NCBI GenBank assembly: GCA_964453135.1
Contig: CAYVOL010000002.1
Coordinates: 55,094-119,093 of the forward strand
Reading direction: 5' to 3'
DNA: 64,000 nucleotides
Source: an uncultured Candidatus Saccharibacteria bacterium
GTDB taxonomy: Bacteria > Patescibacteriota > Minisyncoccia > UBA6257 > UBA9933
Of this stretch, positions 39,580 to 62,166 are shown piece after piece. Each line of letters begins with the position of its first letter. The stretch's first letter is position 1. Made by a program: the position numbers and the translations under genes. The notes under the pieces are model-generated. The model was not told the DNA's origin and searched no databases. It saw only the letters and a program-made list of their open reading frames with translations.

Positions 39580-39653
39580 GGGGACATAGGCTCAACGGCA
39601 AACTGCCTCTCTCCAAAAGAGGATTTCTCCGTTCGAATCGGAGTGTCCCCGCA
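39580..39653 (+). tRNA. tRNA-Trp (anticodon CCA)
   Basis: Acceptor GGGGACA/TGTCCCC, anticodon arm CCTCT-CTCCAAA-AGAGG, T-arm CTCCGTTCGAATCGGAG. D-arm is atypical. Confidence 0.7.
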
Positions 39654-47723: not shown

Positions 47724-48107
47724 GGGGAGCGTCAGGCTTCGACAGAAGACTGCGCCCATAAAATTGCAGGCTGAGGACGGCCCGTTATCCTCAACAATCT
47801 TTCGGGCCAAAAAACAACTGCCAACAAAACATTGGCTCCTGCTTTCGCTTTTGCCTAAGCGGGTTTACCCGCTAAAGCTTTAGCGGCGGCGGGCATCGCT
47901 TGATTGACGCTTGATAAATCAAAAGCGGTGTTATAAATTCAAGATATATTCTTTGTTTGCCGAAGGCAAGGAACTAATTAATTTTCGGCAGGGAATTTCA
48001 AAGATTTTGCCGGATAGTACTTGAAGTTCCTAACTTAATCCGGATAAGCCTGTAGTGATTTTAGGGAAAGTCTTTTGGACAAGGGTTCAATTCCCTTCGC
48101 TTCCACC
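47724..48107 (+). ncRNA. ssrA: tmRNA (ssrA)
   Basis: Starts 3 nt after the smpB stop with GGGGAGCGTCAGGCTTCGACAG. tRNA-like 3' end AGGGTTCAATTCCCT + CGCTTCC-A-CC, acceptor pairing GGGAGCG/CGCTTCC. Internal tag frame gcc aac aaa aca ttg gct cct gct ttc gct ttt gcc taa = ANKTLAPAFAFA*. Confidence 0.75.
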
Positions 48108-57172: not shown

Positions 57173-57955
57173 ATGTCTGTTGAAATTATCTATCAAGACA
57201 AAAATTTCATTGCCGTAAACAAACCGGCGGGAATGCTGACGCACCCGGTTTTAAGGGCGCAAGAAAAAAGACAAGGCAAAAATTTGGGCGGCGAGCGCGG
57301 ACAAGAAGCCCTGACAGATTTTTTAGTCAAAAAATTTCCGGAGATAAAAGAAGTGGGAGACGACCCTTTTCTCCGCCCGGGAATAGTACATCGTTTAGAT
57401 AAGGATACCTCGGGCGTTATTTTAATAGCCCGCAATCAGCCCTATTTTGATTATCTGAAAAATCTTTTTCAAACTCGCAGGATAAAAAAAACATATTTAG
57501 CTTTGGTACAAGGGGAATTAAAAGAAAAGAAAGGAGTGATTGAGAGAGTTATCAGTTTGAAGAGCGGCTCGGTAAAAAGAACGGTTCATAAGGGCAAAGA
57601 AGAAAAGCCGGCCATTACCGAATATCGGACATTGAAAAATTTAATTTTAAGAAAATCGCCGGAAGGAAAAGATTTGAAAGAGAAATTTTCTTTGCTGGAA
57701 GTTAGCCCCAAGACAGGCAGAACCCATCAGATAAGGGTTCATTTGGCGTCAATTAGCCATCCGGTTGCGGGCGACAATTTATACGGGCCTAAAAATTTTG
57801 ACTACACTTCCTTGGGATTGAACCGGCAATTTCTTCACGCGCAATCCGTGGAGTTTAACACCGAAGAAGGGAGGCGGGTTAAAATTGAGGCGGATTTGCC
57901 GCCGGAATTAAAAAACGTTTTGAAAAAATTCCGCGCGGCGCAAGCGGCTAGGTGA
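57173..57955 (+). CDS. RluA-family pseudouridine synthase (no S4 domain)
   Basis: FIAVNKPAGMLTHP, catalytic HRLDKDTSGVILIA, GRTHQIRVHLA. Confidence 0.85.
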   Translation: MSVEIIYQDKNFIAVNKPAGMLTHPVLRAQEKRQGKNLGGERGQEALTDFLVKKFPEIKEVGDDPFLRPGIVHRLDKDTSGVILIARNQPYFDYLKNLFQTRRIKKTYLALVQGELKEKKGVIERVISLKSGSVKRTVHKGKEEKPAITEYRTLKNLILRKSPEGKDLKEKFSLLEVSPKTGRTHQIRVHLASISHPVAGDNLYGPKNFDYTSLGLNRQFLHAQSVEFNTEEGRRVKIEADLPPELKNVLKKFRAAQAAR

Positions 57956-57962
57956 TGCGGTT

Positions 57963-58015
57963 GTCATCCTGAGGAGCCCCGCTGTGGCGGGGCGACGAAG
58001 GATCTCGCGAGATTC
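57963..58015. repeat. MITE-like intergenic repeat, copy C (module 2, inverted orientation)
   Basis: gtcatcctgaggagccccgctgtggcggggcgacgaaggatctcgcgagattc. Its reverse complement aligns base-for-base with copy A 35818-35865. Confidence 0.7.
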
Positions 58016-58117
58016 TTTTCCTCTGATTGGCCTGGCGATAGAATGATTCGCCTTTATTTTTATTTGACTAAACGGCGATGATTTGGTAGTCTTACGAAAT
58101 AATTTTTATCAGGAACT

Positions 58118-58477
58118 ATGGATGAAAAAATTATTCAACAAATAAAGTCCGGCGCGCAGGTGCGCGTTTGGGAAAGAATTGTTGCCGAAAAAGGCGCGGC
58201 TGGCGGAAAAGGGAAAAAAGAAAGCGGCAAAGAGAGAATTTCCAAATTTCAGGGAATAGTTTTGGCGCGCAAACACGGCAAAGAAACCGGCGCCACTTTC
58301 ACCGTTCGCTCTACAGTTGGAGGCGTGGGCGTGGAGAAGGTTTATCCTTTTTATTCGCCGATAATTTCCAAAATAGAAATTTTATCTTCTCCTAAAAAGA
58401 TTCATCGCTCCAAACTTTATTTTGTCAGGGATCTCTCCAAAAAGAAATCGCGCGAGAAAATCGGCGTGGCGGCGTAG
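58118..58477 (+). CDS. rplS: 50S ribosomal protein L19
   Basis: VRVWERI...ERISKFQGIVLARKHGKETGATFTVRS...GVGVEKVYPFYSP matches L19. Confidence 0.9.
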   Translation: MDEKIIQQIKSGAQVRVWERIVAEKGAAGGKGKKESGKERISKFQGIVLARKHGKETGATFTVRSTVGGVGVEKVYPFYSPIISKIEILSSPKKIHRSKLYFVRDLSKKKSREKIGVAA

Positions 58478-58572
58478 AGAATAAGAAGAAGCAATATTTT
58501 TTTGTTTTTATTGATTATGGTATACGCTATAAACTTGAGAAAATGATAAAATAATGATGAAATAAATTAAAA

Positions 58573-59241
58573 ATGAGTAAGAGGGGGGCCAAGCCAAAGG
58601 GGAAAGTTAAAATAAAGTGGTCGTCAAAATTTGCTTACGCGATTGGGCTCTTGGTTACCGACGGCAGTTTATCGAATGATGGGCGACATATTAATTTTAC
58701 CTCAAAAGATAGGGAGTTAGTTATTTTACTAAAAGATTCTTTAATGATCGATAATCACATTGGTAAAAAAGCGAGAGTGAGCGAGCAGGAGAAAAAATAT
58801 TTTGTTATTCAATTTGGAGATGTTTTGTTTTATTCATTTTTATGCTCTATCGGCTTGATGCCATGTAAATCCAAGAAGTTAACTTCAATCAATATTCCAG
58901 ATAAATATTTTTTCGATTTTTTGCGAGGTCATTTTGATGGCGACGGAACTTTTTATTCGTATTGGGATCCGCGTTGGAAATCAAGTTTTATGTTCTATAC
59001 TGTTTTTGTTTCGGCGAGCGAAAAACATATTCAATGGCTTCAAAATAAAATATACGGATTTTTAAAAATTAAAGGGCACATCAACCATAATTTTAAGAAA
59101 ACGGTTTATGAGTTGAAATACGCCAAAAAAGAATCATTGAGTTTATTGACTAAAATGTATTATGATAACAAAGTATCTTGTTTATCAAGGAAGAAGGAAA
59201 AAATAAAAAAAGCTTTAAAAATTGATGAGTATCATCAATAG
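58573..59241 (+). CDS. free-standing LAGLIDADG-family homing endonuclease (two motifs)
   Basis: AYAIGLLVTDGSL and FDFLRGHFDGDGTF. AT-rich compared with neighbours. Ends 4 nt before tRNA-Leu. Confidence 0.7.
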   Translation: MSKRGAKPKGKVKIKWSSKFAYAIGLLVTDGSLSNDGRHINFTSKDRELVILLKDSLMIDNHIGKKARVSEQEKKYFVIQFGDVLFYSFLCSIGLMPCKSKKLTSINIPDKYFFDFLRGHFDGDGTFYSYWDPRWKSSFMFYTVFVSASEKHIQWLQNKIYGFLKIKGHINHNFKKTVYELKYAKKESLSLLTKMYYDNKVSCLSRKKEKIKKALKIDEYHQ

Positions 59242-59245
59242 GTTA

Positions 59246-59332
59246 GCCCGGGTGTCGTAATTGGTAGCCGAGCATGCTTGAGGTGCATGTGGCCGCAAGG
59301 CCGTGGAGGTTCGAGTCCTCTCCCGGGCACCA
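59246..59332 (+). tRNA. tRNA-Leu (anticodon GAG), CCA encoded
   Basis: Acceptor GCCCGGG/CCCGGGC, anticodon arm CATGC-TTGAGGT-GCATG, long variable arm GGCCGCAAGGCCG, T-arm GGAGGTTCGAGTCCTCT, 3' ACCA. Confidence 0.8.
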
Positions 59333-59386
59333 CAACTAACTTTTTCGGAATTGATATTTAAAGGCGCTGTTTGTATACTAAAGAGA

Positions 59387-59776
59387 ATGACAGGAACTGA
59401 AAAAGCAACAAAAAAAATTTTAATCATTGAAGACGACCCTTATATTGTCCGGGCCTACACTTTAAAATTGGCCAAGGAAGGCATTGCCGCGGAGGCGGTT
59501 AATGACGGCGAAACAGCGGTTGATTTCTTGAAAAAAAACAAGCCGCCCGATTTGATTATTTTGGATTTGATGTTGCCTAGGCAAAGCGGCTTCGATGTTT
59601 TAAAAGAGATTAAGCAAAGCGATTTATGGAAAGATATTCCGGTGATAATTCTTTCCAATCTTGGCAGCGAAGAGGACAAGGAGAAAGGGAAAAAACTGGG
59701 CGCCAGCGATTATATCACCAAAGCCGACGCCGGCATTGAAGAGGTGATAGCGAAAATAAAAAAATATCTGAAATGA
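59387..59776 (+). CDS. single-domain response regulator (REC only; PilH/CheY-like) heading the pilin locus
   Basis: ILIIEDDPYIVRAY...DLIILDLMLPRQSGFDV...VIILSNLGS. 129 aa. The ORF-track start at 59303 lies inside the tRNA; ATG at 59387 chosen. Confidence 0.75.
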   Translation: MTGTEKATKKILIIEDDPYIVRAYTLKLAKEGIAAEAVNDGETAVDFLKKNKPPDLIILDLMLPRQSGFDVLKEIKQSDLWKDIPVIILSNLGSEEDKEKGKKLGASDYITKADAGIEEVIAKIKKYLK

Positions 59777-59916: not shown

Positions 59917-60582
59917 ATGTTAAATAAAAATAAGAAAAGAGGTTTTACTTTGTTGGAGCTTTTAATTGTTATCGGCATTTTGGCGGTTTTAGCCGGAGTG
60001 ATGATTTTTATTTTAAACCCGGCGGAAACTTTAAGGAAAGCGCGCGATTCGCAAAGGTTGAGCGATTTGGCGACGTTAAAGTCTGCCTTGGGAATTTATA
60101 TGTCCAGCGCGGCTTCTCCTCAGATTGACGGCACGAGCGGAACAGCCAATGATAAATGTTTGGGCGGCGGAGGGACAAAAACTATTTATTGGAGCAATGC
60201 TACTTCCGGCGCAAACACATCAACAACCAATTCCGGTTTTGACGCTTTTTCCGTTTCTACTTCCGGGGTTATCACCGGCAGCGGCTGGGTTCCGGTAAAC
60301 TTAAGCAGTCTTTCCGGCGGTTCTCCTATATCCGCCATGCCTATTGACCCGTCAAACACCACCAGTTCGGTTGCCACCTCCAGCTTGGTTTATCGTTATG
60401 CTTGCAGGAAGTCTCCCTTGGGATTTGAAATTAATTCTCAGTTGGAGTCTGATTTCTACACGGGCGTTTCCAGCGGCGCCGCTGATTGGAGGAAAAATGA
60501 TTCAGGCAACGAGTCCGGTCTTTATGAAGTAGGCACAGACCTGACAATTTTACTGGCCGCTAGCAGCTCTAATGCGTATTAA
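59917..60582 (+). CDS. type IV pilin-like protein (paralog 1)
   Basis: Prepilin signal MLNKNKKRG-FTLLELLIVIGILAVL with Glu+5. Conserved PAETLRKARDSQR and C-terminal LYEVGTD. Confidence 0.8.
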   Translation: MLNKNKKRGFTLLELLIVIGILAVLAGVMIFILNPAETLRKARDSQRLSDLATLKSALGIYMSSAASPQIDGTSGTANDKCLGGGGTKTIYWSNATSGANTSTTNSGFDAFSVSTSGVITGSGWVPVNLSSLSGGSPISAMPIDPSNTTSSVATSSLVYRYACRKSPLGFEINSQLESDFYTGVSSGAADWRKNDSGNESGLYEVGTDLTILLAASSSNAY

Positions 60583-60590
60583 AATAAAAA

Positions 60591-61280
60591 ATGTTAATTC
60601 ATAAAAAATCAAAAAATAAGCTCGGTTTCACGCTTTTGGAACTTTTAATTGTTATCGCTATTATCGGCATTTTGGGTATGGTGTTGTTTTTCCTGATTAA
60701 CCCGGCGGAAACTTTAAGAAAAGCTCGCGATTCGCAAAGAATTAGCGATTTGGGAACAATCAAATCGGCTTTAGCGCTTTACACTTCCAATGTTTCTTCT
60801 CCTCAGCTTGACGGAACAAGCGGAACGGCCAATGCAAAATGTAAAGACGGAAGCGGTACGAAGACAATTTTCTTAAGCGTCGCGACCAGCGGTATTGCCA
60901 CGACAACGGGTATGAGTCCTGCTTACAGCGCTTTTACCACTTCTACCTTGGCCAGTTCGTCATTGACCAATGGCACGGGATGGGTTCCGGTGAATCTGGC
61001 TTCAATTTCCGGAGGCACGCCGATTTCTCAGCTTCCGGTTGACCCGACTAATACTACAAATAGTTCGGTTGCCACCAGCAGTTTGATTTATCGTTATGTT
61101 TGTAACGGCAGTCCTTTGGGTTTTGGGGTTTCAGCGCAGATGGAAAGCGCTTATTATACCGGATCTGATTCTTCCGCTTCCAGCACGGACGTGAGAAAAA
61201 TTGACGGAGGCAACAACGCGGATCTTTACGAAGTCGGCAGCGACCCGACGCTGTTGCCGGCCACGGGAGCGAAATATTAA
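60591..61280 (+). CDS. type IV pilin-like protein (paralog 2)
   Basis: KLG-FTLLELLIVIAIIGIL. Same conserved N-terminal 50 aa and LYEVGSD tail. 8 nt after paralog 1. Confidence 0.8.
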   Translation: MLIHKKSKNKLGFTLLELLIVIAIIGILGMVLFFLINPAETLRKARDSQRISDLGTIKSALALYTSNVSSPQLDGTSGTANAKCKDGSGTKTIFLSVATSGIATTTGMSPAYSAFTTSTLASSSLTNGTGWVPVNLASISGGTPISQLPVDPTNTTNSSVATSSLIYRYVCNGSPLGFGVSAQMESAYYTGSDSSASSTDVRKIDGGNNADLYEVGSDPTLLPATGAKY

Positions 61281-61310
61281 ACAGGTCGTATAAATAATTA
61301 AATAATAAAT

Positions 61311-61443
61311 CCCCACACCTAATGCGAATTGCGAAGCAAACAAAACTTTATCGTTAAACTTCGCATTCCGTAATTATAGCTATTGTTTTATTTTTCCGTA
61401 TCATTTTGGCTTCGCAAGTTTTATATTCGCATTAGGTGTGGGG
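61311..61443. repeat. large imperfect inverted repeat (27/35-nt arms, about 70-nt spacer) between pilin paralogs 2 and 3
   Basis: Arm 1 ccccacacctaatgcgaattgcgaagc (61311-37). Arm 2 gcttcgcaagttttatattcgcattaggtgtgggg (61409-43) equals the reverse complement of arm 1 plus an 8-nt insertion. Confidence 0.7.
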
Positions 61444-61491
61444 ATAGAAATAATCCATCAATGAATTTTCATCAAAACAGAAAATTTTACT

Positions 61492-62166
61492 TTGCTTGAA
61501 CTTTTGATTGTGGTGGCGATTTTGGCGGTGTTGGGCGCCATTACTTTGTTTGTCTTGAATCCGGCGGAAACTTTGAAGAAAACAAGGGATTCGCAGAGAA
61601 TTACCGATTTGGGAACAATTAAATCGGCGCTGGCTTTGTATTTAACCAGCACCTCCACCGCTTATATAGGCGCGACTTCCACAAGTCCCATTACGACAAA
61701 CGGAGGTTGTCTTAATGGCGGCGCTTCGCTCGGTTCAGCCAGCGGAACGGTTTGGTACAGCGTTAACACTACTTTAGCGAAAGCTACAACTACTTATCCT
61801 GATAACGGAGTAGGCGCCAGCGTCTGGGCTCACGCAACTTCCACCAATCTTTATCTGACCGACGGAACAGGATGGGTTCATGCCAATCTTGACGCTTTGA
61901 CCGGCGGTTCCCCCATTTCCAATTTGCCGGTTGATCCGACCAATACAATAGCCGGGGCAAATAATTCCACCAGCACTGATTTGGTTTACCGGTACGGCTG
62001 CGCGGTTGACAATGCCGCCAATAAATCTATTACCGGATTCGAAGTGGACGCCGAGCTGGAAAGTTCCGCTTACAGCGGAATGGCTTCCACTGACGGCGGA
62101 GATAATTCCCAGCTTTACGAAGTGGGCACTCAGGTAAAAAATCTTTTGCCGAAAAGCGGATTCTAA
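61492..62166 (+). CDS. type IV pilin-like protein (paralog 3) with disrupted or non-canonical leader
   Basis: Mature region FTLLELLIVVAILAVLGAITLFVLNPAETLKKTRDSQR and LYEVGTQ tail are conserved. No in-frame ATG; Asn instead of Gly at -1. ATG at 61461 is in another frame. Confidence 0.55.
   Translation: MLELLIVVAILAVLGAITLFVLNPAETLKKTRDSQRITDLGTIKSALALYLTSTSTAYIGATSTSPITTNGGCLNGGASLGSASGTVWYSVNTTLAKATTTYPDNGVGASVWAHATSTNLYLTDGTGWVHANLDALTGGSPISNLPVDPTNTIAGANNSTSTDLVYRYGCAVDNAANKSITGFEVDAELESSAYSGMASTDGGDNSQLYEVGTQVKNLLPKSGF

What the first reader, a model, noticed from the sequence alone, without database searches (positions are those of the whole stretch)
58573..59241. Free-standing double-motif LAGLIDADG endonuclease wedged between rplS and tRNA-Leu
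The ORF carries two LAGLIDADG-type motifs (AYAIGLLVTDGSL, FDFLRGHFDGDGTF). It is conspicuously AT- and Lys-rich relative to rplS and ends 4 nt before tRNA-Leu(GAG). It is not inside an intron or intein, because the tRNA is intact and colinear. This looks like a mobile homing endonuclease that inserted next to a tRNA. It could also be a domesticated nuclease, or the remnant of an intron that once interrupted a neighbouring RNA gene. A G6 run lies at codons 4-5 (58583-58588).
Basis: partly seen in the sequence, partly recalled or inferred. Interest (0 to 1): 0.5.

Follow-up and report, generated by a model that had tools for sequence, protein, structure and literature searches.

The report
Homing endonuclease gene abutting tRNA-Leu
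The ORF is a real, intact two-motif LAGLIDADG endonuclease gene from a very large, apparently undescribed family of selfish genes that always sit directly against a leucine-tRNA gene, and related bacteria show the same site both with and without it.

Summary
Observation confirmed. ORF 58573-59241 (222 aa) is a double-motif LAGLIDADG protein: Pfam LAGLIDADG_3, AF2 pLDDT 92, best PDB fold match I-Tsp061I. It is AT-shifted (GC 0.32 against 0.45 for rplS) and ends 4 nt before tRNA-Leu(GAG). No intron or intein surrounds it.

Thousands of homologues exist in Patescibacteria. In 74 of 74 evaluable species genomes the ORF stop lies -36 to +19 nt from the 5' end of tRNA-Leu(GAG), once AAG. rplS is upstream in about 83% of loci. 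The invariant partner is therefore the tRNA.

Relatives at 35-51% identity, some in high-GC hosts, abut tRNA-Leu(GAG), (CAG) or (CAA).

A tRNA-based metagenome sample gave 18 empty sites, with rplS directly followed by tRNA-Leu(GAG), and 4 occupied sites. Empty and occupied sites interleave on the L19 tree. One pair with L19 87% identical differs only by a clean ~700-nt ORF indel.

Both catalytic Asp are invariant and dN/dS is about 0.11. ORF GC tracks host GC, and some pairs show horizontal transfer.

Verdict: a free-standing homing endonuclease gene specific for the 5' flank of tRNA-Leu genes, long resident but patchy. Cleavage activity and the target site are not tested.

The parts
58118..58477 (+). 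rplS (ribosomal protein L19). It is the usual, but not obligatory, upstream neighbour of the element.
   Evidence: Pfam Ribosomal_L19, E 1.1e-22. An L19 gene lies within 402 nt upstream of the ORF in 66 of 80 genome loci. In empty-site relatives rplS is followed directly by tRNA-Leu(GAG).
58478..58572 (+). AT-rich 95-nt spacer between rplS and the ORF. It forms the left edge of the insertion.
   Evidence: The scan found no terminator-like or + strand promoter-like site here. Co-transcription of the ORF with rplS is inferred, not shown.
58573..59241 (+). Free-standing double-motif LAGLIDADG endonuclease gene, 222 aa plus a TAG stop.
   Evidence: Pfam LAGLIDADG_3. phrog_4645 endonuclease, E 2.4e-28, and PADLOC HEase, E 1.5e-5. 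AF2 pLDDT 92, pTM 0.88, with alpha-beta-beta-alpha-beta-beta-alpha topology twice. Foldseek best hit is I-Tsp061I (2dch), E 2e-10. 4577 homologues.
58583..58588 (+). G6 run in codons 4-6 (AGG GGG GCC).
   Evidence: Read from the sequence. It lies in the variable N-terminal tail, which many homologues lack. No function is inferred.
58633..58671 (+). First LAGLIDADG motif, AYAIGLLVTDGSL. The putative catalytic Asp30 is at codon 58660-58662.
   Evidence: Translation. D30 is invariant in 120 homologues. It lies at the C-terminal end of predicted helix 18-30.
58912..58953 (+). Second LAGLIDADG motif, FDFLRGHFDGDGTF. The putative catalytic Asp124 is at codon 58942-58944.
   Evidence: Translation. 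D122, G123, D124 and G125 are invariant in 120 homologues. D124 lies at the end of predicted helix 110-124.
59137..59166 (+). Weak promoter-like site inside the ORF (TTGAGT-18-TATGAT). It is a candidate promoter for the tRNA in this genome.
   Evidence: Consensus scan, 9 of 12 matches. This is weak evidence only. The window lacks the strong TTGAAA-17-TATAAT found in the last 80 nt of the ORF in about 28% of homologous loci.
59242..59245 (+). 4-nt spacer (gtta) between the ORF stop codon and the tRNA 5' end.
   Evidence: Across 74 loci this distance ranges from -36 to +19 nt.
59246..59332 (+). tRNA-Leu(GAG), intact. It is the invariant downstream partner of the ORF and the presumed homing landmark.
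   Evidence: ARAGORN. Rfam tRNA, 45.8 bits. A tRNA-Leu lies directly after the ORF in 74 of 74 evaluable loci.

Best explanation
The ORF is a free-standing ('intronless') LAGLIDADG homing endonuclease gene. It belongs to a large family whose fixed genomic address is the 5' flank of tRNA-Leu genes.

Shown here:
- The ancestral arrangement in these Patescibacteria is rplS followed directly by tRNA-Leu(GAG).
- In the window, a cassette of about 700 nt holding only this ORF sits between the two genes, and its stop codon lies 4 nt from the tRNA.
- The family is patchily distributed, with clean empty sites in close relatives.
- The gene is under strong purifying selection, and both active-site Asp are invariant.
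- It is mostly inherited vertically, because its GC tracks the host. It has occasionally moved between distant hosts.

Inferred, not shown:
- The protein is an active site-specific DNA endonuclease. It cuts empty alleles at or near the 5' half of the tRNA-Leu gene, the only sequence conserved across all empty sites and all isoacceptors.
- Repair of the break from an occupied allele copies the ORF in.
- Because the ORF leaves no room for a separate tRNA promoter, the tRNA must be transcribed through or from within the ORF. In about 28% of homologues a near-consensus promoter is embedded in the last codons of the ORF.
- In the window the three genes are probably one transcription unit.
For: Identity:
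- Pfam LAGLIDADG_3 scores above its cutoff.
- The AF2 model has pLDDT 92. Its best PDB matches are I-Tsp061I, intein endonucleases, I-AniI and I-DmoI.
- D30 and D124 are invariant in 120 homologues. The beta-strand segments are the most conserved parts of the protein.

Free-standing:
- No Rfam intron hit in 57900-59500.
- The tRNA is intact.
- No tRNA fragment is duplicated upstream of the ORF.

Fixed address:
- 74 of 74 evaluable genome loci have tRNA-Leu(GAG), once AAG, starting -36 to +19 nt from the ORF stop. rplS is adjacent in only 66 of 80.
- Seven of eight cellular relatives at 35-51% identity abut tRNA-Leu(GAG), (CAG) or (CAA). Several of these hosts have 61-68% GC.
- Remote viral relatives are not tRNA-linked.

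Mobility:
- 18 empty rplS-tRNA-Leu(GAG) sites against 4 occupied sites in a tRNA-based metagenome sample.
- Empty sites contain no ORF remnants.
- Empty and occupied sites interleave on the L19 tree.
- L047 and L125 are colinear, with rplS 87% identical at the amino-acid level, apart from an ORF-only indel.
- L013 and L018 have LAG dS 0.92, while their L19 has dN 0.47 and saturated dS.
- 6 of the 20 most similar LAG pairs have L19 distance >=0.37.
- ORF GC is lower than the flanks in 99% of loci.

Selection and residence:
- L023 and L029 give dN/dS 0.11, with LAG dS equal to L19 dS.
- ORF GC correlates with host GC, r=0.77.

Embedded promoter:
- 21 of 75 loci score >=10 of 12 for TTGAAA-17-TATAAT, with the -10 element ending about 17-25 nt before the tRNA. 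None of 444 control windows inside the ORF reached that score.
Against: - No cleavage activity or target site has been demonstrated.
- tRNA sequences at occupied and empty sites show no diagnostic difference. How an occupied allele escapes self-cleavage is therefore unexplained.
- Sequences upstream of the tRNA at empty sites are not conserved. A target spanning the insertion point would have only one conserved half-site.
- Degenerate copies are almost absent: one in-frame stop in 80 loci and no remnants at empty sites. The classic invasion-decay-loss cycle predicts more decay.
- The window's own L19 clade contained only occupied sites, although that sampling was biased towards occupied loci.
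- The gene is more conserved than L19 at long range. That would also fit a host function.
- L19 is a short marker, so the phylogenetic incongruence is only moderately strong.
Confidence: 0.7

Rival explanations
1. Domesticated LAGLIDADG protein with a host function tied to tRNA-Leu. It might regulate or maintain the tRNA-Leu gene, or act as a maturase-like RNA partner. On this reading it is kept by selection on the host, inherited vertically, and lost repeatedly in some lineages.
For: - Strong purifying selection: dN/dS 0.11 in the one pair with unsaturated dS. 29 columns are invariant in 120 sequences.
- Almost no pseudogenes.
- ORF GC tracks host GC.
- Weak but significant co-divergence with L19: r=0.33, Mantel p about 5e-4.
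- Linkage to one class of tRNA persists down to 35% identity and across phyla.
- The tRNA promoter is embedded in the ORF in a subset of loci.
Against: - The gene is absent from about 80% of CPR-like rplS-tRNA-Leu(GAG) loci sampled through the tRNA. This includes hosts whose L19 is 87-89% identical to that of carriers. It is therefore dispensable.
- Both catalytic Asp are retained, unlike the domesticated factor WhiA.
- No extra regulatory domain is present.
- GC is persistently 9 points below the flanks.
- At least one clear case of horizontal transfer exists.
Confidence: 0.2
2. Remnant of a group I intron or other intervening sequence that once interrupted a neighbouring RNA gene and left its ORF stranded.
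For: [quoted passage not shown]
- The best structural match is an archaeal rRNA-intron enzyme.
Against: - No group I or group II intron hit in 57900-59500, even at E<=5.
- The tRNA is complete, and the ORF lies wholly 5' of it.
- The same ORF-then-tRNA geometry recurs in 74 of 74 loci with no intron. It is therefore the element's normal state, not a local remnant.
Confidence: 0.03
3. Fragment of a tRNA-targeting integrative island or prophage that carries a nuclease gene.
For: tRNA genes are common integration sites. The ORF's GC is lower than that of its flanks.
Against: - The insertion holds a single ORF of about 700 nt, on the 5' side of the tRNA.
- There is no integrase and no direct repeat of tRNA sequence.
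- No close homologue was found in phage collections.
Confidence: 0.02

Closest known systems
Monomeric double-motif LAGLIDADG homing endonucleases (I-Tsp061I, I-DmoI, I-SceI, I-AniI)
   Same: - Same fold: Foldseek E 2e-10 to 1e-6, TM about 0.5-0.68.
- Two LAGLIDADG helices, each ending in an acidic residue.
- Similar size, about 200-250 aa.
   Different: Those enzymes are encoded inside group I or archaeal introns. This one is free-standing, in an intergenic position against the 5' end of a tRNA gene. Sequence identity is only 12-20%.
Free-standing homing endonucleases that spread by intronless homing (phage T4 Seg and Mob enzymes, cyanophage F-CphI; reviewed in PMC3984707)
   Same: - It is a stand-alone gene in an intergenic region next to a highly conserved gene.
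- Presence/absence polymorphism occurs between related genomes.
- The expected mechanism is cleavage of the endonuclease-lacking allele, then copying of the gene during repair.
   Different: - Those enzymes are GIY-YIG or HNH types in phage genomes. This one is a LAGLIDADG enzyme in cellular genomes, mainly Patescibacteria.
- It has one address, a tRNA-Leu 5' flank, maintained across thousands of genomes and several isoacceptors.
- The ORF often overlaps the tRNA or contains its promoter.
LAGLIDADG endonucleases in rRNA-gene insertion sequences of CPR bacteria (PMC11270868)
   Same: Same host phylum and same enzyme superfamily. That paper reports LAGLIDADG_3-type proteins in CPR 16S rRNA insertions and describes a patchy distribution.
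   Different: Those lie within rRNA genes, usually in group I introns. This family lies outside any RNA gene, at tRNA-Leu. The paper's text contains no mention of tRNA.
WhiA (domesticated LAGLIDADG transcription factor)
   Same: LAGLIDADG fold (3hyi, Foldseek E 1.3e-7). There is a weak Pfam LAGLIDADG_WhiA hit below its cutoff.
   Different: WhiA has lost its catalytic residues and carries a C-terminal HTH domain. Here both Asp are invariant and there is no HTH.

Membership tests
LAGLIDADG homing endonuclease (double-motif, monomeric) | Two LAGLIDADG helices, each ending in a conserved acidic residue | tested here: met
   The motifs are at residues 21-33 and 114-127. D30 and D124 are invariant in 120 homologues. 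They lie at the ends of predicted helices 18-30 and 110-124.
LAGLIDADG homing endonuclease (double-motif, monomeric) | Alpha-beta-beta-alpha-beta-beta-alpha fold repeated twice, forming a DNA-binding saddle | tested here: met
   The AF2 model has pLDDT 92 and pTM 0.88 with that topology. Foldseek top hits are all LAGLIDADG enzymes, led by 2dch at E 2e-10.
LAGLIDADG homing endonuclease (double-motif, monomeric) | Match to a curated family profile above its threshold | tested here: met
   Pfam PF14528 LAGLIDADG_3, 26.5 bits against a cutoff of 22.5. phrog_4645, E 2.4e-28.
LAGLIDADG homing endonuclease (double-motif, monomeric) | Site-specific double-strand cleavage of a long DNA target | not testable with these tools
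   This needs an in vitro cleavage assay. The target site is unknown.
Homing (mobile) endonuclease gene | Presence/absence polymorphism at one homologous site in related genomes | tested here: met
   18 empty rplS-tRNA-Leu(GAG) sites against 4 occupied ones. They interleave on the L19 tree. L047 and L125 differ by a clean ~700-nt indel.
Homing (mobile) endonuclease gene | Gene phylogeny incongruent with host phylogeny (horizontal spread) | tested here: inconclusive
   Some clear outliers exist: L013-L018 with LAG dS 0.92 against saturated L19, and 6 of the 20 closest LAG pairs with L19 distance >=0.37. Other results point to vertical descent: r=0.33 with L19 distances, equal dS in L023-L029, and GC amelioration. 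L19 is a short marker.
Free-standing (intronless) homing endonuclease gene | Not embedded in an intron or intein | tested here: met
   The only credible Rfam match in 57900-59500 at E<=5 is the tRNA itself; there is no intron hit. The ORF stands alone with its own ATG and stop. The tRNA is intact.
Free-standing (intronless) homing endonuclease gene | Cleavage site lies in the conserved gene next to the insertion, in alleles that lack the endonuclease gene | not testable with these tools
   Adjacency to tRNA-Leu is absolute. The cleavage site itself can only be found by experiment.
WhiA-type domesticated LAGLIDADG factor | Loss of catalytic acidic residues and presence of a C-terminal HTH domain | tested here: not met
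   Both Asp are invariant. Pfam finds no HTH domain, and LAGLIDADG_WhiA scores 17.7 bits, below its cutoff of 23.2.
Intron-encoded endonuclease or maturase | ORF located within a group I or group II intron structure | tested here: not met
   No intron family matched in 57900-59500 at E<=5, nor in the whole window at gathering score.
tRNA-targeting integrative element | Integrase gene and direct repeats of the tRNA end flanking the insert | tested here: not met
   The insert holds one ORF only. No tRNA-derived repeats occur upstream in 75 loci beyond scattered 11-14-nt chance matches.

The most novel reading that the evidence does not exclude
This may be a previously undescribed homing system dedicated to tRNA-Leu genes and built to make its own insertion harmless.

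- The endonuclease would recognise the 5' half shared by class II tRNA-Leu genes. That would explain subfamilies at the GAG, CAG and CAA genes, and occurrence in both Patescibacteria and high-GC bacteria.
- The ORF would supply an outward promoter in its last codons to keep the essential tRNA expressed.
- Because the ORF ends at or inside the tRNA, RNase P processing of the tRNA would cut the endonuclease mRNA at or before its stop codon. That would limit endonuclease synthesis, possibly through tmRNA.

A stronger variant is that the nuclease has been co-opted by the host to drive gene conversion or maintenance of tRNA-Leu genes.
Probability: 0.2. Interest if true: 0.7.

Novelty: new variant of a known kind. 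Interest (0 to 1): 0.55.

Why it matters
Free-standing LAGLIDADG homing endonuclease genes are, to my knowledge, rarely reported in bacterial chromosomes. Published work on Patescibacteria describes LAGLIDADG genes only within rRNA-gene insertions.

This family has more than 4500 sequence clusters and occurs in at least 387 species genomes. Its address is constant: flush against the 5' end of a tRNA-Leu gene.

If it is confirmed, three things follow:
- It adds a third class of endonuclease-driven mobile DNA in these reduced genomes, alongside rRNA and tRNA introns.
- It offers a natural set of compact (~220 aa) meganucleases that probably recognise a tRNA-gene sequence.
- It provides a tractable case for asking how a selfish gene persists for very long periods under purifying selection with almost no decayed copies.

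It also matters for annotation. Many called proteins carry C-terminal tails, and in at least one case (P0157, L211) an N-terminal extension, that are simply translated tRNA sequence.

Tried and rejected
1. Group I or II intron, or any other structured RNA around the ORF. Rfam found nothing beyond the tRNA, at gathering score for the whole window and at E<=5 for 57900-59500.
2. 'Universally conserved syntenic gene, therefore domesticated'. This was my first impression from three contexts. The tRNA-based sample then revealed many empty sites, so I rejected it.
3. rplS as the functional partner. Eight of 80 loci have no L19 within the 2.5-3 kb of upstream sequence available, and six more have it 593-2709 nt away. 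Distant relatives have unrelated upstream genes.
4. An insertion inside the tRNA that is restored by a duplicated tRNA fragment. No such duplications occur upstream of the ORF.
5. A resistant tRNA allele linked to the ORF. No diagnostic base separates occupied from empty tRNAs.
6. Decayed ORF remnants at empty sites. An HMM search of six-frame translations found none.
7. Phage carriage. Only remote (<=35%) LAGLIDADG relatives occur in IMG/VR and GenBank phages, and none is tRNA-linked.
8. A defence-system role. PADLOC matches only its generic 'HEase' models.
9. The organism name for the window's contig was not recoverable.
10. The literature holds no description of a tRNA-Leu-flanking LAGLIDADG.

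Full report
**1. The observation**

The ORF at 58573-59241 (+) is real. It has an ATG start, 222 codons and a TAG stop.

- Pfam LAGLIDADG_3 is matched above its curated cutoff (E 7.8e-6).
- rplS lies at 58118-58477 (Ribosomal_L19, E 1e-22).
- An intact tRNA-Leu(GAG) lies at 59246-59332, 4 nt after the stop codon.
- The G6 run is at 58583-58588.
- The ORF is AT-shifted: GC 0.323 against 0.453 for rplS and 0.42 for the window.
- The remark that it is Lys-rich relative to rplS is wrong: 15.8% against 16.0% Lys.
- Nothing of note lies on the opposite strand.

**2. What the protein is**

An AlphaFold2 model built on 120 homologues is confident (pLDDT 92, pTM 0.88). It shows the alpha-beta-beta-alpha-beta-beta-alpha unit twice.

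Foldseek against the PDB returns only LAGLIDADG proteins. The best is the archaeal rRNA-intron enzyme I-Tsp061I (E 2e-10, TM 0.63/0.68). Next come intein endonucleases, I-AniI, I-DmoI, I-SceI and, lower down, WhiA. A sequence search of the PDB gives the same weak relative, 2dch.

In alignments of 29 and 120 homologues the two acidic residues are invariant. These are D30 and D124, each at the end of a LAGLIDADG helix. The predicted beta-strand segments are the most conserved parts of the protein, and the surface helices vary. This pattern fits an enzyme that still binds and cuts one constant nucleic-acid target.

**3. Not in an intron or intein**

Rfam finds no intron or other family around the ORF. 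I checked at gathering score over the whole window and at E<=5 over 57900-59500. Only the tRNA is hit. No terminator-like site separates rplS, the ORF and the tRNA.

**4. The family and its fixed address**

The word-indexed protein search gave 4577 hits at E<=1e-3. The best non-self hits are 65-71% identical, 215-230 aa long, and come from Patescibacteria where named. The exhaustive search of 50% representatives gave 3925 hits, 96 of them below 1e-30.

A scan of one genome per species found 387 species genomes with a relative, using two stringent peptide patterns. Hosts include Jorgensen-, Wolfe-, Lipton-, Giovannoni-, Harrison-, Staskawicz-, Portnoy-, Azam-, Doudna- and Magasanikbacteria.

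In the 80 loci kept, every one with enough downstream DNA (74 of 74) has tRNA-Leu(GAG), once AAG, starting -36 to +19 nt from the ORF stop. The recurrent values -15 and -36 arise where the ORF has lost its own stop codon. It then reads into the tRNA until it meets TAA in the D-loop, or the TGA formed by U33 plus the first two anticodon bases.

rplS lies within 402 nt upstream in 66 of the 80 loci. It is 593-2709 nt away in six and not within the available upstream sequence in eight. The invariant partner is therefore the tRNA, not rplS.

The rule extends to distant relatives.

| Protein | Identity to query | Locus | Position |
|---|---|---|---|
| P0135 | 42% | L209 | 5' of tRNA-Leu(GAG); UDG gene upstream |
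| P0187 | 35% | L210 | 5' of tRNA-Leu(GAG); peptidase S51 gene upstream |
| P0122 | 51% | L213 | 5' of tRNA-Leu(CAG) |
| P0170 | 43% | L214 | 5' of tRNA-Leu(CAG) |
| P0191 | 37% | L212 | 5' of tRNA-Leu(CAA) |
| P0141 | 46%, N-terminal HTH | L221 | 5' of tRNA-Leu(CAA) |
| P0157 | 43% | L211 | just 3' of tRNA-Leu(CAA) |
| P0239 | 37%, two HTH repeats | L222 | not tRNA-linked |

Several of these hosts have 61-68% GC, so they are probably not Patescibacteria.

By my reading, at least 15 of the 44 longer C-terminal tails among representative proteins look like translated tRNA sequence. Remote viral LAGLIDADGs at 27-35% identity have no tRNA nearby, which serves as a negative control.

**5. Presence/absence polymorphism**

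I searched metagenome contigs with a pattern taken from the anticodon loop and T-arm of the tRNA. This sampling is independent of the ORF.

Among 120 loci, 18 carry rplS followed directly by tRNA-Leu(GAG), 57-294 nt after the L19 match, with no ORF. Only 4 carry the ORF. A profile search of six-frame translations found no decayed remnants at empty sites.

On an L19 neighbour-joining tree the empty sites interleave with occupied ones in several clades. The large clade that contains the window held only occupied sites, but the occupied loci had been selected through the ORF itself.

The closest pair is L047 (occupied) and L125 (empty). They are colinear for rplS (87% amino-acid identity), tRNA-Leu and tRNA-Val. 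They differ by a ~700-nt segment that holds only the ORF.

**6. Mode of inheritance**

The evidence is mixed in an informative way.

- Pairwise LAG distances correlate only weakly with L19 distances (r=0.33, Mantel p about 5e-4). They stay within 0.31-0.41 whatever the host distance.
- This is partly saturation of a fast-evolving 40% of sites on an invariant core. There are real outliers as well.
- Of the 20 most similar LAG pairs, six have L19 distance >=0.37.
- L013 and L018 have LAG dS 0.92, while their L19 genes have dN 0.47 and saturated dS. I read this as horizontal transfer.
- In contrast, L023 and L029 have equal dS for both genes (0.74 and 0.72) and LAG dN/dS 0.11. This indicates vertical descent under strong purifying selection.
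- ORF GC is below the flanks in 99% of 77 loci (mean 0.363 against 0.452), yet it tracks host GC with r=0.77. This indicates long residence.
- Only one of 80 copies has an in-frame stop (L082).

**7. Relation to tRNA expression**

No room is left for a separate tRNA promoter. In 21 of 75 loci a near-consensus TTGAAA-17-TATAAT lies inside the last 80 nt of the ORF. It sits in a fixed register, with the -10 element ending about 17-25 nt before the tRNA. None of 444 control windows elsewhere in the ORF scored as high.

Empty sites instead show an rplS terminator hairpin and a promoter in the spacer.

The window lacks this strong promoter. It has only a weak TTGAGT-18-TATGAT at 59137-59166. In the window the tRNA is therefore probably co-transcribed with rplS and the ORF. 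That is an inference.

**8. Mechanism proposed**

Shown here:
- a canonical, selected LAGLIDADG enzyme gene;
- an address fixed on tRNA-Leu 5' flanks;
- clean empty sites in close relatives;
- some horizontal movement.

Inferred:
- The enzyme cuts alleles that lack it, within or at the 5' edge of the tRNA-Leu gene. The 5' half of the tRNA (GGTGGNGNAA..GG.AGAC) is the only sequence shared by all empty sites and all three isoacceptors.
- Recombinational repair then copies the ORF in, as in intronless homing (PMC3984707).

Unexplained:
- How occupied alleles avoid self-cleavage. Occupied and empty tRNAs show no diagnostic difference, and the upstream flanks of empty sites are not conserved.

**9. 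Rival explanations**

- *Domesticated protein with a host role at tRNA-Leu.* This fits the strong selection, the scarcity of pseudogenes and the long residence. It is hard to reconcile with absence from most sampled rplS-tRNA-Leu(GAG) loci, including very close relatives. Retained catalytic residues and the lack of any added domain also count against it. I give it about 0.2.
- *Intron remnant* and *integrative island*. Both are essentially excluded.

**10. Known or new**

Databases already label some members 'LAGLIDADG family homing endonuclease', so the protein class is known.

The literature I could search describes LAGLIDADG genes of Patescibacteria only inside rRNA-gene insertions (PMC11270868). 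It describes group I introns, some with HNH genes, in tRNA-Asn and tRNA-Asp (PMC13011429). I found no description of a free-standing LAGLIDADG family fixed at tRNA-Leu 5' flanks.

I therefore rate it a new variant of a known kind and score interest at 0.55. It is not categorically new. It is large, clean and testable, and two features are unusual: the ORF overlaps the tRNA, and the tRNA promoter is embedded in the ORF.

Noticed in passing
L005, L011, L014, L019, L025, L044, L061, L070-L074 and others; last ~80 nt of the ORF: In about 28% of homologous loci the codons for the C-terminal motif ...RKRLKIEKALxII... spell a near-perfect sigma-70 promoter, TTGAAA-17-TATAAT. It is aimed at the tRNA, about 20 nt upstream of its 5' end. 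The window's copy lacks it.
   Followed up: partly
L002, L013, L018, L020, L021, L028 and others; also proteins P0122-P0235: In many homologues the stop codon lies inside the tRNA gene, 15 or 36 nt in. Many called proteins therefore carry C-terminal tails that are translated tRNA (for example ...ARVAKLVDA), and P0157 (L211) carries such a stretch at its N-terminus. RNase P cleavage would leave these mRNAs without a stop codon.
   Followed up: partly
L156, about 100 nt upstream of tRNA-Leu(GAG) (an empty site): A 17-nt exact duplicate of the tRNA 5' end (GCGGACGTGGTGGAATT) lies in the rplS-tRNA spacer. A hairpin and a GTCCGC that could pair with its start follow it. It may be a footprint of an earlier rearrangement or a tRNA-like remnant.
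   Followed up: no
L018:3463-3548: In this one locus the tRNA after the ORF has anticodon AAG instead of GAG. Its 5' half matches that of L013 apart from one extra T in the D-loop. L013 carries the most similar endonuclease, even though the two hosts are very distant by L19. This could be co-conversion of the tRNA 5' half together with the ORF.
   Followed up: no
L082:3001-3680: One homologue has a single in-frame stop at codon 158 in an otherwise well-conserved ORF. It is a candidate recent pseudogene or a sequencing error.
   Followed up: partly
window 59917-62166: Three tandem paralogous genes of 221, 229 and 224 aa. Each has an N-terminal type IV pilin-like segment (FTLLELLIV...) and a shared C-terminal motif (LYEVG). 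They lie just downstream of a stand-alone response-regulator gene at 59387-59776.
   Followed up: no
window 57955-58000: A GC-rich inverted repeat (ccccgctgtggcgggg) lies directly after the pseudouridine synthase gene and before the rplS promoter region. Rfam gave only a sub-threshold RsmY-like hit. It is probably a terminator.
   Followed up: no
window 59246-59332 and 39580-39652: The whole-window Rfam scan at gathering score listed only three of the five tRNAs that ARAGORN found. tRNA-Leu(GAG) and tRNA-Trp were missed by the fast filters. The Leu tRNA scored 45.8 bits when the region was searched alone.
   Followed up: partly
window 47725-48107: A tmRNA gene with tag peptide ANKTLAPAFAFA is present in the window. 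It is relevant if endonuclease mRNAs lacking a stop codon are produced in relatives.
   Followed up: no
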